The notes: a model not told the origin generated them from the sequence alone. A DNA stretch of 23,680 bases from Candidatus Heimdallarchaeota archaeon (GCA_016840095.1 JAEOSZ010000063.1:1-23680), one strand, 5' to 3'; shown: positions 8,019 through 15,303, numbered from the stretch's first letter. Program-made: numbers and translations.

Positions 8019-8444
8019 ATGGCTAGGAGATTACCTTGGTTACTACCCGGAATTCGTAGGCCCAATTTCAATTTACATCAAATTTCAGTTCGTATGCCAA
8101 CGAGAATTCCGAGAAGTTTGATTTATGTTGCAATATATATGGTTGTGTTCTATGTCTTTGCTGGAGGAGCATATATGGTTGTAAACCAGGAGACTCTAGT
8201 AAGCATCGGTCAATTCGGTAATAGTCCTCAATTCATTGCTCGTAGTATTCATACTCAATATTTGATTGAAGGGTTAGTTATTGGTTTTATACTGGCATTT
8301 GCTGCAGCAAGCTTATATCTACTTGATTATGCTTCTAAGTTTGCCTTTGATGTTGGAACTGCTCAAAAGATTGAACTTATTGCAACAATTTTAGTCATTG
8401 TATGGTATATTGCTGTTATATTGATCTTTAACGCGAAACTGTAA
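8019..8444 (+). CDS. Oligosaccharyltransferase subunit OSTC/DC2-like (OST3/OST6 family TM module)
   Basis: 141 aa with 3 TM helices; RRLPWLL...PNFNL N-terminus, FAGGAY, FIARSIHTQYLIEGL and C-terminal AKL, collinear with human OSTC as remembered (YRVPFLVLECPNLKL, ITGGIIY, FLAYRVNGQYIMEGL, RMKL). Confidence 0.82.
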   Translation: MARRLPWLLPGIRRPNFNLHQISVRMPTRIPRSLIYVAIYMVVFYVFAGGAYMVVNQETLVSIGQFGNSPQFIARSIHTQYLIEGLVIGFILAFAAASLYLLDYASKFAFDVGTAQKIELIATILVIVWYIAVILIFNAKL

Positions 8445-8451
8445 CAAAAGA

Positions 8452-9096
8452 TCAAAAACCACTTTTCACTATTTTTATTCCTTCACAAGTAACTCTGTAG
8501 AAAATATCTTCTTTTTCGTTTTGTGCTTTCCACAACTTTTTGTTGATGTTTCTTAATCTTATCTCTCTGTCTGAATAATTCATAATAGCTGAATTTGCTA
8601 CAGGTCTTATAATCTTCTTTCCCTTGTCTCTGAATGCAGTTACTTGATTTGTAATTAGAATCGGAATTTGGTATTCGTTACTAACCATATTCAAGTATGC
8701 CATTTGCAGTGTTAATAGTCTGTGTAAGCTCATTTCATTGATTTGGGAACTTTTAAATCTGAAATGATCAGTTATTCCATTAATAGCAATAAATGCATAA
8801 TCTGTATTTGGAATGAAATTATGGATTTTCATCAAAGTTTTGATTTGTTGGTTTTTATCAAAAATACTGATAACTGTGATATCATTAAGATCTACATCGT
8901 AATTCAGATTAATTTCCTTTAATCTCTGTGCACTAAAGTTGATCTCACAATCAAAAAAAAGTGCTTTTTTTCCATTCAAACTTCTACATGTTTGGTAAAT
9001 TAGGGTTGTTTTTCCTGAATTTGGAGGCCCTGCTATGTGAGTTATACCCTGAGGAACTATTCCGTTTTTCAGTAAATCAATTAGTACCAACTGCAT
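8452..9096 (-). CDS. radB: RadB-like / Rad51-paralog RecA-family protein
   Basis: GGI-like NGIVPQGITHIAGPPNSGKT (Walker A), FFDCEINFSAQRL, ILITNQV; no N-terminal HhH domain. Walker B Asp is replaced by Asn (IAING). BRE/TATA aaagctttaatatata upstream. Confidence 0.65.
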   Translation of the reverse strand: MQLVLIDLLKNGIVPQGITHIAGPPNSGKTTLIYQTCRSLNGKKALFFDCEINFSAQRLKEINLNYDVDLNDITVISIFDKNQQIKTLMKIHNFIPNTDYAFIAINGITDHFRFKSSQINEMSLHRLLTLQMAYLNMVSNEYQIPILITNQVTAFRDKGKKIIRPVANSAIMNYSDREIRLRNINKKLWKAQNEKEDIFYRVTCEGIKIVKSGF

Positions 9097-9167
9097 CACA
9101 AATATTGAGAATTATAATTTATACTTTGATTTATTATATATTAAAGCTTTGAAAAGAATATTTCCTT

Positions 9168-9392
9168 TTAGATTACAAGAAGATAGATTATCAAAGAAAA
9201 GACAATTAATCCAACACCTTTTCCTATTTTGTTTAAATTGTAACTTAGATTTTTATTGATTAGTCCCCTGCTTGTTTTCTCAGTTGTAATCATTAAACCT
9301 ATCCAGATTCCTACTTTAGATGCATATAGAAGAATCAATAAAACAATATTCAAAACGTTCTGAAGGGTTCCTTCTCCAATGTTCAACGCCAT
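9168..9392 (-). CDS. Small two-TM membrane protein (weak TMEM258/Ost5-like pattern)
   Basis: 74 aa from ATG 9392 (or 78 aa from 9404), with two hydrophobic segments around a basic loop; fills the gap between nadE and radB. Confidence 0.55.
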   Translation of the reverse strand: MALNIGEGTLQNVLNIVLLILLYASKVGIWIGLMITTEKTSRGLINKNLSYNLNKIGKGVGLIVFSLIIYLLVI

Positions 9393-9461
9393 TTTCTTCA
9401 ACATTCTAACCAAAGTTTAGATTAAATACTCCACAAAAATTTGGAAACAATGCTTCTGTTC

Positions 9462-12985: not shown

Positions 12986-13001
12986 ACAAGGAAGTTGCTA
13001 A

Positions 13002-15125
13002 ATGTCAAGTCAGCGCTCATTAAAAGAAATTGTAGATGTAATTTCTTCTGAAACAGGAATGGGAAAAGAAGAAATTCATCAACTTATCAATGATAAAATG
13101 GAAGAATTAGGAGAGTTTGTGACACAGCTTGGAGCTGTTCACATTGTGGCAAGAGAAATGGGTGTAGACCTTTCTTCAGAACCTCCGGTTCAAGTGCAAA
13201 CTACTTTAAGCATCAACGAGTTAGTTCCCGAAATTACTAATGTTAATCTTATTGGACGTATTTTTAGGATATATAATCAACACAATTTCAAGAAAAAGAA
13301 AGATGGTTCTGATGGTGTTTTACAATCAGTCATTGTTGAGGATAAAACTGGTAGAATACGTGTGGTGTTTTGGGATCAGAAGGTAATTGAATTACAGAAT
13401 AGCAACTGCAAAGTTGGTGATCCCATTCGAATTTTGAATGGTTATACTCGAGCAGGAAAAGATGAAGCTGTTGAAGTACATTTGGGGATTAGAAGTCAAG
13501 TTCAAATTAGACCTTCTGGTATTGATGATTCTGTTTTACCTACATTCGATTCTACAGCTTCCAAAATTAAGGATATTAAGGGAAATGAGATTGATCTTTC
13601 TTTAATTGGTAAAGTCACTCAAAAGGATGATCTTCTTGAGTTTGAAAGAGCTGATGGTACAAAAGGTGTTAAACAAGGTTTAGTTCTAGGGGATGAAACT
13701 GGAGAAATTTATGTTAATTTTTGGAATGAAAAAGCTGATGATGTCCAAGGTATTGGTTTAGGAGATATTATTGAGGTTGTTGGATTAGCAGCGAAGGTAG
13801 GGTTGAAAGGGCATCTAGAAATGCATTCAAGCAAATATACAAACGTTGCTAAGAAAGAGGATACTAAAGATATAATTGTGAAAAAGGGTTTTGTTGGTTC
13901 AGGAACTGATATTGGTGCTCAATTATTACCAATAGCTCAGATTACAGAGTTAAGTTCTCTAATATCAGCAAAAGGTTTGATAATTCATGTAAATCCAATG
14001 CATGAATTTTCCAGAGAAAATGGAACTAAAGGTAAGGTAAGAGATATTACAATTTCTGACAACACAGGAATTATTCGTGTTGTTTTATGGGATGACAAAA
14101 TCCAATTAGTGAATGAAGATGATATTAACAAAGTTATTTCTATACTGAATGGTTTTACAAGACAAGGAAGGTATACAGATATAGAGATTCATTGTGGGAA
14201 TCAGACTAGAGTAGATGTAGAAAGCATAGATACCGATTCCATGAACCAATATCAGATGAATTTCGCTAGTATCAAATCTATTGCAGACAATATGAAAGAA
14301 GCACATATCCAAGGCATTGTAAGTGATTTAAGTCCAATTCAAGATATTAAAACCAAAGAGGATGAGATTATTCAACTAAGAAACCTGAGAGTTGAAGATC
14401 AATCAGGTACAATTCGTATTACTTGTTGGCGAGAAAATGTAAATAAGATTTCAGAATTAAGTGTTGGTGATACCGTTGAAATATACAATGCTAGTGTCAA
14501 AGAAGATGCTGGGTATGGTACCGAGTTATTAATCAACAAAAACACTATTGTGAAAAAATCATTAAATAGTACAGCAAGTCCACAAGGTTTTGTATCAAGC
14601 TTAGAAGTTTCCCCTCTAAAAATCGACTTAGAGAAAATTACAGATATTGAAGATATAGAGGAAGGAGAAGCGGTCACAGTCCAAGCTACTGTAGTTAAGC
14701 TCATAGAGAAGCAATTTGTATATCCATTATGTCCTGAATGTAAGAAGAAGATGAAAAAAGAAAATGGTAGCTATAACTGTGCAGATCATGGAAAAATGGA
14801 TAAGCCATTAAATCGAATTCTTTTTACTTTTGTTGCTAATGATGGAACTGGGAACATTAATGTTCTTTGTGCAGGGAAATTAGCTGAAATTGTTTTAGAG
14901 ATGTCTGCTGATGCTGCTGCAAGAATGGTAGAAGAAAATGAATCAGAAAATGCTCCTTATTCTTACTTGAAGGCTAAGAACTTTGTTAACTCAGAACTAA
15001 TTATAAGCGGCAAAGTAAATCAAAATCCTTATCTCAAAAGCTTAGAAATTATTGCAAACTCAATTGAAAAGGTTAGATACGCTGAAACAACAAAAAATAT
15101 GATAAAGCAGATTCATACTGAATAA
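13002..15125 (+). CDS. rpa: Replication protein A large subunit (N-terminal helical domain, five OB folds, Zn finger)
   Basis: OB signatures EDKTGRIRVVFW, GDETGEIYVNFW, SDNTGIIRVVLW, EDQSGTIRITCW, NDGTGNINV; Zn finger CPEC...CADH. Confidence 0.9.
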   Translation: MSSQRSLKEIVDVISSETGMGKEEIHQLINDKMEELGEFVTQLGAVHIVAREMGVDLSSEPPVQVQTTLSINELVPEITNVNLIGRIFRIYNQHNFKKKKDGSDGVLQSVIVEDKTGRIRVVFWDQKVIELQNSNCKVGDPIRILNGYTRAGKDEAVEVHLGIRSQVQIRPSGIDDSVLPTFDSTASKIKDIKGNEIDLSLIGKVTQKDDLLEFERADGTKGVKQGLVLGDETGEIYVNFWNEKADDVQGIGLGDIIEVVGLAAKVGLKGHLEMHSSKYTNVAKKEDTKDIIVKKGFVGSGTDIGAQLLPIAQITELSSLISAKGLIIHVNPMHEFSRENGTKGKVRDITISDNTGIIRVVLWDDKIQLVNEDDINKVISILNGFTRQGRYTDIEIHCGNQTRVDVESIDTDSMNQYQMNFASIKSIADNMKEAHIQGIVSDLSPIQDIKTKEDEIIQLRNLRVEDQSGTIRITCWRENVNKISELSVGDTVEIYNASVKEDAGYGTELLINKNTIVKKSLNSTASPQGFVSSLEVSPLKIDLEKITDIEDIEEGEAVTVQATVVKLIEKQFVYPLCPECKKKMKKENGSYNCADHGKMDKPLNRILFTFVANDGTGNINVLCAGKLAEIVLEMSADAAARMVEENESENAPYSYLKAKNFVNSELIISGKVNQNPYLKSLEIIANSIEKVRYAETTKNMIKQIHTE

Positions 15126-15151
15126 TTACCTTTACTTTTTTTGCAATTGGT

Positions 15152-15168
15152 CGAAAAGCTTATTAATA
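15152..15168 (+). promoter_or_regulatory. Putative BRE/TATA promoter for the 35-aa ORF
   Basis: cgaaaagc-TTATTAATA about 28 nt upstream of ATG 15196, after a T-run following the RPA stop; same style as the radB and OSTC promoters. Confidence 0.55.
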
Positions 15169-15195
15169 AACAATAAGCAGCTTCAACCGATAAGT

Positions 15196-15303
15196 ATGGA
15201 TTTCGTTGTAATTAAAACCGTGATAATTATTTTTATTATATTAGCTGTCATTTTTGCACTGTTTTACCATGCATTTAGTGTAGGGAAAGAAGAAGAAACT
15301 TAG
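15196..15303 (+). CDS. Unannotated 35-aa single-TM miniprotein, OST4-like
   Basis: Manual translation MDFVVIKTVIIIFIILAVIFALFYHAFSVGKEEET*; dedicated promoter; TM ends in YHA at positions 24-26, as in yeast Ost4 (remembered: 36 aa, ...LIVIYHAV, YH at 25-26). Confidence 0.6.
   Translation: MDFVVIKTVIIIFIILAVIFALFYHAFSVGKEEET

What the first reader, a model, noticed from the sequence alone, without database searches (positions are those of the whole stretch)
8019..15303. Neighbourhood of up to four candidate eukaryote-type OST accessory subunits
Seen within 7.3 kb: OSTC/DC2-like (8019-8444, strong), 2-TM TMEM258/Ost5-like (9168-9392, weak), GIFT-domain type I membrane protein with OST48/Wbp1 topology (10542-11642, moderate) and OST4-like (15196-15303, moderate), flanked by a sequon-rich surface protein. 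Known: most archaea use the single-subunit AglB; eukaryotic OST-A contains STT3A, OSTC, OST4, TMEM258, OST48, DAD1 and ribophorins, and some subunits have Asgard homologs. Inference: this organism may assemble a multi-subunit, translocon-associated OST. The genes are not one operon (different strands, housekeeping genes between them), and no AglB/STT3 or ribophorin gene is in the window.
Basis: partly seen in the sequence, partly recalled or inferred. Interest (0 to 1): 0.8.

Follow-up and report, generated by a model that had tools for sequence, protein, structure and literature searches.

The report
Asgard oligosaccharyltransferase accessory genes, loosely linked
In this Heimdallarchaeaceae (Asgard archaeon) genome, three of the four proposed helper genes of the protein-glycosylating enzyme hold up to different degrees, but this toolkit is already published for Asgard archaea and the genes sit together by inherited gene order, not as an operon.

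Summary
The window is a whole contig of a Heimdallarchaeaceae genome whose nearest named relative is AB_125. All four ORFs are real, conserved genes.

- **A (8019-8444):** an OSTC/DC2-type member of the OST3/6 family. It is short, has three TM helices and no thioredoxin domain. Human OSTC is its only PDB sequence match.
- **C (10542-11642):** a signal-peptide, C-terminally anchored, sequon-rich GIFT-domain protein. Its family matches Wbp1/OST48 (E 8e-9 and 2e-8) but matches IFT52 at least as well. It lacks the OST48 middle domain. It is probably the published "divergent WBP1".
- **D (15196-15303):** an unannotated 35-aa single-pass protein, intact in all 30 family genomes. HMMs do not link it to OST4. 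Co-folding places it between TM1 and TM13 of this genome's STT3, where Ost4 sits (ipSAE 0.81, controls 0.00).
- **B (9171-9392):** has no TMEM258/Ost5 support. A better Ost5-like gene lies on another contig.

STT3 and ribophorin I are encoded elsewhere in the genome. The co-location is family-level synteny. STT3 lies within 25-27 kb of A, C and D in two sister genera, and the linkage is lost outside the family.

Eme et al. 2023 already report these subunits in Asgard archaea. This scan earlier reached a similar verdict on a Thorarchaeial genome.

The parts
8019..8444 (+). A: OSTC/DC2-type member of the OST3/OST6 family (141 aa, 3 TM, no thioredoxin domain)
   Evidence: Pfam PF04756 positions 181-288/294, E 5e-6. 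Family profile A2 against PDB hits only human OSTC 6s7o_H, E 3e-4. The top 4 Foldseek hits of a weak model are all OSTC, but with non-significant E values of 0.2-0.8. Present as a short form in 77/83 genomes of the class.
9171..9392 (-). B: conserved 74-aa two-TM protein of unknown role, lying between NAD synthase and a RadB-like gene on the same strand. Not supported as TMEM258/Ost5.
   Evidence: Conserved ORF in 24/31 family genomes but only genera g1 and g2. 0/14 family members hit Pfam Ost5 and the profile has no PDB hit. Coding-like substitution pattern.
10542..11642 (+). C: signal-peptide, C-terminally anchored GIFT-domain glycoprotein candidate (366 aa, 12 sequons). Homologous to the N-terminal domain of OST48/Wbp1 and to the IFT52 GIFT domain.
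   Evidence: OST48_N hit in 17/23 close relatives, IFT52_GIFT in 12/23. Broad profile A5 against PDB: IFT52 2.2e-13, Wbp1 8e-9 over 33-300, OST48 2.2e-8. VIA-align Z: IFT52 15.6, Wbp1 13.0-13.1, OST48 12.4-12.7. Usually one match per genome, in 78/83 class genomes and 143/201 phylum genomes.
15196..15303 (+). D: 35-aa single-pass OST4-like miniprotein (motif FALFYHAFS-GKEEE), predicted N-out/C-in
   Evidence: Intact in 30/30 family genomes. Probable orthologs with an ALLYH[YF] motif in a sister family. Co-fold with STT3: ipSAE 0.81 in three runs against 0.00 in three controls, partner pLDDT 83. Contacts fall on STT3 29-55 (TM1) and 470-493 (TM13). No HMM link to Ost4.
15310..18192 (-). 960-aa surface protein with signal-like N-terminus, C-terminal TM and 24 sequons. 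A likely OST substrate, not a subunit.
   Evidence: Hydropathy and sequon count. 97.8th percentile of sequon density. No Pfam family. Syntenic 964-aa ortholog in L007.
7170..7928 (+). UFL1/DDRGK1-like winged-helix protein directly upstream of A. Context only, not an OST subunit.
   Evidence: Pfam E3_UFM1_ligase E 1.5e-8, PCI 2.8e-5, DDRGK 0.0077. The same gene directly follows STT3 in genome G004 (L129:3680-4441).

Best explanation
This contig of a Heimdallarchaeaceae genome carries three genes that most likely encode accessory parts of a eukaryote-like oligosaccharyltransferase. The catalytic STT3 and ribophorin I are encoded elsewhere in the genome.

A is an OSTC/DC2-type protein, that is, the membrane part of the OST3/6 family without the thioredoxin domain. 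D is a 35-aa Ost4-like helix that packs N-out/C-in between TM1 and TM13 of STT3. Together with STT3 they would form the equivalent of eukaryotic OST subcomplex II (Stt3-Ost4-Ost3/DC2).

C is an extracellular, membrane-anchored GIFT-domain protein, itself probably N-glycosylated. It is homologous to the N-terminal domain of OST48/Wbp1 and is probably the 'divergent WBP1' already reported for Heimdallarchaeia. Whether it joins the complex is inferred, not shown.

B is a genus-level small membrane protein with no link to OST. The Ost5/TMEM258 role is better filled by a 74-aa gene on contig C25.

The genes are separately transcribed. Their proximity is inherited gene order of the family Heimdallarchaeaceae, and in some genera that block also includes STT3.

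Shown here: the homology of A, the fold and topology of C, and the conservation and coding nature of B and D. Predicted only: D docking on STT3. Inferred: complex assembly and any coupling to the Sec translocon.
For: Taxonomy: C is 91% identical to HeimAB125_02260, and the other named hits are Heimdallarchaeaceae.

A: Pfam OST3_OST6 TM part. The profile's only PDB hits are human OSTC, E 3e-4, including the QYLIEGL/QYIMEGL stretch. The only other OST3_OST6 hit in the genome is a plain 145-aa thioredoxin without TM helices.

D: conserved in 30/30 family genomes, with a coding-like substitution pattern. Complex prediction of STT3 + A + D with D as partner gave ipSAE 0.81 in all three runs, best of three controls 0.00, at least 95% contact agreement and partner pLDDT of at least 82. 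That mark was reached by 58 of 80 solved complexes and 2 of 110 mismatched pairs, and the counts hold only roughly because my own alignments were used. Contacts fall on STT3 29-55 and 470-493, the first and last TM helices. This matches 'Ost4 is nestled between TMH1 and TMH13 of Stt3' (PMC7226087). The contact pairs imply N-out/C-in, as shown experimentally for Ost4p (PMC3687696).

C: significant profile matches to Wbp1 (8e-9, whole domain) and OST48 (2.2e-8). Z 12.4-13.1 to Wbp1/OST48. Type I topology and a sequon density at the 99.6th percentile. Usually one match per genome, in 78/83 class genomes.

Rest of the genome: STT3 with WWDYG and ribophorin I, E 4e-16.

Synteny: STT3, D, A and C span 26.8 kb in G005 and 24.7 kb in G004.

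Literature: Eme et al. 2023 report the same subunit set in Asgard archaea.
Against: D has no detectable sequence homology to OST4. The Pfam Ost4 model finds nothing credible in the genome. The D-family profile does not hit any OST4 chain in the PDB even at E 10. No member hits PF10215, and the ESM Atlas gave nothing. The co-fold pass may reflect the model's memory of solved OST complexes. The control partners were unrelated natural 35-residue proteins, not necessarily TM helices, so specificity against other hydrophobic miniproteins was not tested.

C matches the IFT52 GIFT domain better than OST48/Wbp1, in sequence (2.2e-13 against 8e-9) and in structure (Z 15.6 against 13.1). It has no room for the OST48 middle domain. 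No eukaryote-grade OST48 match appeared among the 94 of the top 150 relatives that were Pfam-scanned. No DAD1/Ost2 was found by Pfam in this genome.

The model of C has a mean pLDDT of only 65, and the model of A only 63.

The A-C linkage is lost outside the family: 152 kb apart in G045, and more than 0.3 Mb apart in G056 and G057.
Confidence: 0.6

Rival explanations
1. Only A is a true OST component. C is a generic extracellular GIFT-domain glycoprotein of Asgard archaea with some other role at the cell surface. D is an unrelated small membrane protein whose docking on STT3 is a modelling artefact. The clustering is neutral synteny.
For: C is at least as close to IFT52 as to OST48. Many relatives also hit GldG-type ABC_transp_aux (37/94). 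The C family is Asgard-wide (143/201 genomes), broader than the published WBP1 distribution. D has no HMM link to OST4. Housekeeping genes separate all the candidates. Linkage is lost outside one family.
Against: D scores ipSAE 0.81 against 0.00 for the controls, at exactly the TM1/TM13 groove and in the Ost4 orientation. D-like ORFs in a sister family carry an LLYHY/LLYHF motif that, from my memory of the OST4 sequences, resembles the conserved end of the OST4 TM helix. C has the type I topology of OST48/Wbp1, which IFT52 and GldG lack. STT3 sits in the same 25-27 kb block in two genera.
Confidence: 0.25
2. One reading: all four, including B as TMEM258/Ost5, are OST subunits encoded in one functional neighbourhood.
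For: B has two TM helices, about 74 aa, and a basic loop consistent with an N-out/C-out topology like TMEM258. It lies between A and C.
Against: 0/14 B-family members hit Pfam Ost5 and the profile has no PDB match. B was found in only 2 of 5 genera of the family. A different 74-aa gene (G000:C25:16368-16592, motif WFIFYVEMS) was found in 17 of 18 genera of the class with a single query, and 4/12 of its family hit Pfam Ost5, best E 0.0032. B sits co-directionally between nadE and a radB-like gene.
Confidence: 0.05
3. The block is the remnant of a selected OST gene cluster in the Heimdallarchaeaceae ancestor (STT3, Ost4-like, OSTC-like, GIFT/WBP1-like, with the UFL1/DDRGK1-like gene). The genes would be kept near each other for co-regulation or co-assembly, not by neutral drift.
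For: Four a-priori OST candidates lie within 24.7-26.8 kb of roughly 3.1-3.4 Mb genomes in two genera. For a single genome my back-of-envelope estimate gives a chance expectation near 1e-6. The UFL1-like gene is next to A here and next to STT3 in G004.
Against: The genomes are relatives, so this is essentially one event. The block also keeps RPA, NAD synthase, RadB, KaiC-like, FIST and a small GTPase. Strands differ. In this genome's own genus STT3 is about 78 kb away (G008). There is no linkage in other families apart from one unsupported case, G035.
Confidence: 0.1

Closest known systems
Eukaryotic OST subcomplex II: Stt3-Ost4-Ost3/Ost6 (yeast, PDB 6EZN/6C26) and STT3A-OST4-DC2/OSTC (human OST-A, PDB 6S7O)
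   Same: A canonical STT3. A three-TM OSTC-like protein of the same length whose only PDB sequence match is OSTC. A 35-aa N-out/C-in helix predicted in the TM1/TM13 groove where Ost4 sits.
   Different: No detectable sequence homology between D and OST4. D's tail is acidic (GKEEET) rather than a KKXX-type tail. No experimental evidence of assembly. The membrane is presumably the cell membrane, not an ER. A's contact with STT3 or SecY was not scored.
OST48/Wbp1 (OST subcomplex III)
   Same: An N-terminal GIFT domain (profile E 8e-9 to Wbp1, Z about 13). A signal peptide, a single C-terminal TM helix and a short basic cytosolic tail.
   Different: No middle domain between the GIFT domain and the TM helix. 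IFT52 GIFT is an equal or better match. Partners DAD1/Ost2 and Swp1 were not found here by Pfam. The family is Asgard-wide.
Published Asgard OST subunit homologs (Eme et al. 2023, Nature 618:992, PMC10307638)
   Same: The same lineage (Heimdallarchaeaceae, including AB_125) and the same claimed set: Ost1, Ost3, Ost4, Ost5, WBP1.
   Different: The accession table is truncated in the copy I could read, so I could not confirm that A, C and D are the exact proteins they list. They describe WBP1 as restricted to Heimdallarchaeia, whereas the C family here has full-length relatives across the phylum.
IFT52 GIFT domain (PDB 5FMS/5FMR)
   Same: The best structural and sequence match of C's ectodomain (Z 15.6; E 2.2e-13).
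   Different: IFT52 is cytosolic, with no signal peptide or TM helix, and belongs to the ciliary IFT-B complex, which has no archaeal counterpart.

Membership tests
OSTC/DC2 (OST3/OST6 family, PF04756, short form) | Sequence homology to the OST3/6 membrane domain, closest to OSTC | tested here: met
   PF04756 positions 181-288, E 5e-6, 26.6 bits against a cut-off of 27. 32/34 homologs carry PF04756. Profile against PDB hits only OSTC, E 3e-4.
OSTC/DC2 (OST3/OST6 family, PF04756, short form) | About 150 aa, three TM helices, no lumenal thioredoxin domain | tested here: met
   141 aa with three hydrophobic helices. Open frames of 143-205 aa across the class. The genome's other PF04756 hit is a soluble thioredoxin.
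OSTC/DC2 (OST3/OST6 family, PF04756, short form) | Fold superposes on OSTC | tested here: inconclusive
   Model pLDDT 63. The top 4 Foldseek hits are OSTC chains, but E is 0.2-0.8 and TM-score about 0.4.
OSTC/DC2 (OST3/OST6 family, PF04756, short form) | Bridges STT3A to the Sec61 channel | not testable with these tools
   Needs biochemistry or cryo-ET. A rode along in the co-fold but was not scored.
OST48/Wbp1 | N-terminal GIFT domain (PF03345) | tested here: met
   Window protein alone is weak (E 0.03). 17/23 relatives hit OST48_N, best 2.3e-6. A5 profile: Wbp1 8e-9, OST48 2.2e-8. Z 12.4-13.1.
OST48/Wbp1 | Closer to OST48 than to other GIFT families (IFT52, GldG/ABC_transp_aux) | tested here: not met
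   IFT52 scores higher in sequence (2.2e-13) and in structure (Z 15.6). Among 94 representatives, IFT52_GIFT 43, ABC_transp_aux 37, OST48_N 17.
OST48/Wbp1 | Second (middle) lumenal domain between the GIFT domain and the TM helix | tested here: not met
   The GIFT fold spans about 29-321 and the TM helix starts at about 331. No further Pfam domain.
OST48/Wbp1 | Type I topology with a short cytosolic tail | tested here: met
   N-terminal hydrophobic segment 5-23, TM at about 331-356, tail RYRNKRRTTVRIK.
OST48/Wbp1 | Partners DAD1/Ost2 and Swp1 present | tested here: inconclusive
   The Pfam DAD model finds only a stop-ridden 13.6-bit hit. Swp1 was not searched.
OST4 | 30-40 aa, single TM, N-out/C-in | tested here: met
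   35 aa with one TM helix. The contact pairs run antiparallel to STT3 TM1 and TM13. Ost4p topology from PMC3687696.
OST4 | Sequence match to Ost4 (PF10215 or solved OST4 chains) | tested here: not met
   No hit. Only a YH motif at the end of the TM helix, recalled from memory as OST4-like.
OST4 | Packs between TM1 and TM13 of STT3 | tested here: met
   Prediction only: ipSAE 0.81 against 0.00 for the controls, with contacts on STT3 29-55 and 470-493, compared with PMC7226087.
Ost5/TMEM258 (candidate B) | Sequence match to PF05251 or solved TMEM258/Ost5 | tested here: not met
   0/14 members hit Ost5 and the profile has no PDB hit. The rival C25 family has 4/12 hits, best E 0.0032.
Ost5/TMEM258 (candidate B) | Phyletic breadth matching STT3 and Ost1 in Asgard archaea | tested here: not met
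   B was found in 2 of 5 genera of one family. The rival gene was found in 17 of 18 genera of the class.

The most novel reading that the evidence does not exclude
Heimdallarchaeaceae keep the remnant of an ancestral OST gene block: STT3, an Ost4-like miniprotein, an OSTC/DC2-type subunit and a WBP1-like GIFT protein, with a UFL1/DDRGK1-like gene next to OSTC or STT3. This would mean that a translocon-coupled OST-A-like complex, and perhaps a ribosome-facing UFL1-like factor working beside it, predate eukaryotes and UFM1.
Probability: 0.12. Interest if true: 0.7.

Novelty: new member of a known kind. Interest (0 to 1): 0.38.

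Why it matters
Eukaryotic N-glycosylation depends on an eight-subunit OST docked to the Sec61 translocon. How that complex grew from the single-subunit archaeal AglB is a live question in eukaryogenesis.

This locus adds concrete, testable gene models in the family closest to AB_125:
- an unannotated 35-aa gene predicted to occupy the Ost4 groove of STT3;
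- evidence that the OST3/6 protein of Heimdallarchaeia has the DC2/OSTC architecture, which in animals marks the co-translational, translocon-bound OST-A;
- a caution that the 'WBP1' homolog is a one-domain GIFT protein no closer to OST48 than to IFT52.

It does not change the published picture.

Tried and rejected
- **Pfam Ost4, Ost5 and DAD models on the whole genome:** only chance-level hits, none at B or D.
- **Single-sequence and profile searches of B and D against PDB and Pfam:** nothing related to OST.
- **ESM Atlas look-up of D:** best score 0.81, no family.
- **The OST3_OST6 hit on contig C108:** considered as a possible full-length Ost3, rejected. It is a 145-aa soluble thioredoxin.
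- **phmmer of C against PDB:** nothing. The narrow profile A1 found only IFT52. The broad profile A5 was needed to reach Wbp1/OST48.
- **Profile search of 1.84 billion representatives with A1:** 499 relatives, but none of the 94 that I Pfam-scanned from the top 150 scored like a eukaryotic OST48. I therefore could not obtain eukaryotic OST48 or IFT52 sequences and could not build a GIFT-domain tree.
- **STT3-GIFT proximity in G035 (6 kb):** the genes between them are thiolase, hydrolase, radical SAM and M50 peptidase, and the proximity is not seen in other genomes of that family, so I treated it as chance.
- **Fold search of the A model:** OSTC ranked first but was not significant.
- **The look-up of sequencing runs for expression evidence:** The first genome search also failed and was repeated.
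- **Eme et al. supplementary accession table:** truncated in the held copy, so exact protein identities could not be matched.

Full report
**What is there**

The window is the whole contig C43 of a 3.44-Mb, 165-contig genome that is 89% complete. GC content is about 32%. Protein C is 91% identical to HeimAB125_02260, and the other named relatives are Heimdallarchaeaceae. The organism is therefore an Asgard archaeon of that family.

The gene order in the region is as follows:

| Coordinates | Strand | Gene |
|---|---|---|
| 6084-7013 | - | KaiC-like ATPase |
| 7170-7928 | + | UFL1/DDRGK1-like winged-helix protein |
| 8019-8444 | + | A |
| 8452-9099 | - | RadB/Rad51-like |
| 9171-9392 | - | B |
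| 9462-10244 | - | NAD synthase |
| 10316-10391 | - | tRNA-Thr |
| 10542-11642 | + | C |
| 11678-12985 | + | HTH protein |
| 13002-15125 | + | RPA |
| 15196-15303 | + | D |
| 15310-18192 | - | 960-aa surface protein |

**A is an OSTC-type protein**

Pfam matches only the C-terminal membrane part of OST3_OST6 (positions 181-288 of 294, E 5e-6, 26.6 bits against a cut-off of 27). Of the 34 homologs found, 32 carry a precomputed PF04756 hit, and all are 89-153 aa long.

A profile of 18 relatives hits only human OSTC in the whole PDB (6s7o_H, E 3e-4). It does not hit the Ost3, Ost6, TUSC3 or MAGT1 chains that are also present there. The conserved QYLIEGL stretch aligns to QYIMEGL.

The protein has three hydrophobic helices and no thioredoxin domain. 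The genome's only other OST3_OST6 hit is a soluble 145-aa thioredoxin. The short form is present in 77 of 83 genomes and 17 of 18 genera of the class.

A weak AF2 model (pLDDT 63) ranks four OSTC chains first in Foldseek, but not significantly.

**C is a GIFT-domain type I membrane protein, and orthology to OST48 is not established**

C has an N-terminal hydrophobic segment, a C-terminal TM helix, a short basic tail and 12 sequons. That sequon density is at the 99.6th percentile of the genome's ORFs of 250 aa or more.

The sequence evidence is as follows:
- On its own, C hits OST48_N at only E 0.03.
- Among 23 close relatives, 17 hit OST48_N, 12 hit IFT52_GIFT and 11 hit ABC_transp_aux.
- A profile search of 1.84 billion representatives found 499 relatives. 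Of 94 mostly near-full-length representatives taken from the top 150, 43 hit IFT52_GIFT, 37 hit ABC_transp_aux and 17 hit OST48_N. None scored like a eukaryotic OST48.
- That broad profile matches IFT52 (E 2.2e-13, N-terminal part only), Wbp1 (E 8e-9 over the whole domain, 33-300 against 19-268) and human OST48 (E 2.2e-8).

The structural evidence points the same way. The AF2 model (pLDDT 65; residues 174-240 are unconfident) gives these VIA-align Z-scores: IFT52 15.6, the S1P C-terminal domain 14.8, Wbp1 13.0-13.1, OST48 12.4-12.7, and other GATase1-like folds 11.5 or less.

C therefore belongs to the GIFT superfamily and is homologous to the OST48/Wbp1 N-domain. It is no closer to that domain than to IFT52. 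The fold ends at about residue 321, only about 10 residues before the TM helix, so there is no OST48 middle domain. What singles out OST48/Wbp1 is the topology.

The gene usually gives one match per genome and is present in 78 of 83 class genomes. It was also found in 143 of 201 sampled genomes of the phylum, in 48 of 59 genera. That is broader than the 'Heimdallarchaeia only' distribution published for WBP1.

**D is a real gene and behaves like Ost4 in a co-fold**

The 35-aa ORF is intact in 30 of 30 family genomes, in 5 of 5 genera. Its consensus is MDFT.I.T..II.II.A.IFALFYHAFSIGKEEET. Differences fall mostly on third codon positions (3067/1151/4911), and single synonymous changes outnumber non-synonymous ones 2807 to 1205 (the pairs are not independent). 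Gene callers missed it in GCA_019894795.

Marginal HMM hits in a sister family are small ORFs ending in FFALLYHYLSLEEADE and IFALLYHFWNLADAEE. From my memory of OST4 sequences, these resemble the conserved end of the OST4 TM helix. That is a lead, not a test.

No HMM test links D to OST4.

The one complex job co-folded STT3 (alignment of 34 sequences), A (18) and D (15), with D as the scored partner.
- ipSAE was 0.81 in all three runs, and the best of three controls was 0.00.
- The runs agreed in at least 95% of contacts, and partner pLDDT was at least 82.
- The mark was reached by 58 of 80 solved complexes and 2 of 110 mismatched pairs. These counts hold only roughly here, because my own alignments were used and the job had three chains.

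D residues 3-33 touch STT3 29-55, 156-169, 437-450 and 470-493. By hydropathy, 30-57 is the first TM helix and 465-492 is the last one before the external domain. A review of the yeast structures states that 'Ost4 is nestled between TMH1 and TMH13 of Stt3' (PMC7226087).

The closest pairs are D14 with STT3 485, D22 with 474, D17 with 40 and D10 with 44. They run antiparallel to both STT3 helices, which gives N-out/C-in, the orientation shown for Ost4p (PMC3687696).

Two caveats apply. A like complex has been solved, so the pass shows likeness and not binding. The control partners were not chosen to be TM helices.

**B is not supported as TMEM258/Ost5**

B (74 aa, two TM helices, conserved TTEK loop) is a real gene in genera g1 and g2, in 24 of 31 genomes. 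It has no Pfam or PDB match as a family, and it sits co-directionally between nadE and the radB-like gene.

I located it at G000:C25:16368-16592 (-). It is 74 aa long and contains ITWFIFYVEMSQRK. With a single query it was found in 17 of 18 genera of the class. Four of 12 family members hit Pfam Ost5, best E 0.0032. That support is weak, but it is better than B's on every count.

**Where the rest of the enzyme is, and what the 'neighbourhood' means**

STT3 (752 aa, with WWDYG) is on contig C3, and ribophorin I is on C14.

The order UFL1-like, A, RadB, B, NadE, C, HTH, RPA, D, surface protein is identical in another Heimdallarchaeaceae genome (L007). In Heimdallarchaeum endolithica, A, NadE, RadB and C are rearranged but still lie within 8 kb.

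Placing all the hits on contigs gives this picture:

| Genome | Genes and positions | Span or distance |
|---|---|---|
| G005 (complete genome) | STT3 1,944,818; D 1,950,993; A 1,963,382; C 1,970,526 | 26.8 kb |
| G004 | STT3 32,221; A 41,293; C 43,088; D 56,847. The UFL1-like gene directly follows STT3. | 24.7 kb |
| G001 | A 7 kb from STT3; C and D about 40 kb from A | about 52 kb |
| G008 (this genome's genus) | STT3 about 78 kb from A | |
| G045 (outside the family) | A and C | 152 kb apart |
| G056, G057 (outside the family) | A and C | more than 0.3 Mb apart |

The block also preserves RPA, KaiC-like, FIST and small-GTPase genes.

I read this as inherited gene order of one family. It may be a decayed ancestral cluster, but the genomes are close kin, so the repeated observations are effectively a single event.

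**Comparison with what is known**

Eme et al. 2023 state that Ost1 and Ost3 were already known in Asgard archaea. They add Ost2, Ost4, Ost5, Swp1 and WBP1. [quoted passage not shown] A 2026 preprint again lists OST48/WBP1 clusters in Asgard archaea. UFL1 and DDRGK1 are also reported to originate in Asgard archaea (PMC10183829).

This scan's follow-up on a Thorarchaeial genome reached a parallel verdict: STT3, a DC2/OSTC-like partner and an Ost4-site miniprotein, with the OST48 call doubtful.

**Verdict**

The finding is largely a rediscovery in one more genome. What it adds:
- exact gene models, including an unannotated Ost4-like micro-ORF with co-fold support;
- the observation that the OST3/6 protein has the DC2/OSTC architecture across the whole class;
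- correction of the Ost5 assignment;
- a caution on WBP1 orthology;
- a description of family-level linkage that also includes STT3.

Noticed in passing
window 7170-7928 (+); L129:3680-4441 (+): A UFL1/DDRGK1-like winged-helix protein (E3_UFM1_ligase E 1.5e-8, PCI, weak DDRGK) sits directly upstream of the OSTC-like gene here. The same gene sits directly downstream of STT3 in genome G004. In eukaryotes UFL1-DDRGK1 acts on ribosomes at the ER translocon. An Asgard origin of UFL1/DDRGK1 is published (PMC10183829), but I did not see this adjacency to OST genes mentioned.
   Followed up: partly
G000:C25:16368-16592 (-) = L063:5001-5225 (-): A 74-aa two-TM gene (…ITWFIFYVEMSQRKNWK…) found in 17/18 genera of the class. 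4/12 family members hit Pfam Ost5, best E 0.0032. It is the better Ost5/TMEM258 candidate of this genome.
   Followed up: partly
L007:17275-17385 (+) (GCA_019894795, JAGXNV010000001): The 36-aa ortholog of D is not among the called genes of the public annotation. The miniprotein family is probably unannotated in most Heimdallarchaeaceae assemblies.
   Followed up: partly
window 3753-7013 (-): A Ras/Arf/Roc-like small GTPase (201 aa), a FIST-domain protein (447 aa), a 119-aa protein without a Pfam hit and a KaiC-like ATPase (309 aa) form a co-directional string. The string is conserved between STT3 and the OSTC-like gene in other genera (L129, L132, L127).
   Followed up: partly
window 10316-10391 (-): tRNA-Thr (GGT) lies between NAD synthase and the GIFT gene.
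   Followed up: no
window 15310-18192 (-): A 960-aa surface protein with no Pfam family, a signal-like N-terminus, a C-terminal TM helix with a KKKG tail and 24 sequons. It is a candidate S-layer or surface glycoprotein, with a syntenic 964-aa ortholog in L007.
   Followed up: partly
phylum-wide search with alignment A1: Full-length relatives of the GIFT protein (E 1e-30 to 1e-90) occur in many Asgard families outside the class, in 143/201 genomes. Some families carry 2-6 copies, and some copies are fused into 900-1000-aa proteins. This is broader than the published WBP1 distribution.
   Followed up: no
G077:C96:2322-2745 (-): A genome of another family (f7) holds an A-like fragment scoring like the Heimdallarchaeaceae copies (E 5e-68), with an internal TGA. 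This is probably bin contamination.
   Followed up: no
window 21035-22411 (-) and 18518-21024: A T2SSE/archaellum-type secretion ATPase lies next to three ORFs (346, 209 and 270 aa) without any Pfam hit.
   Followed up: no
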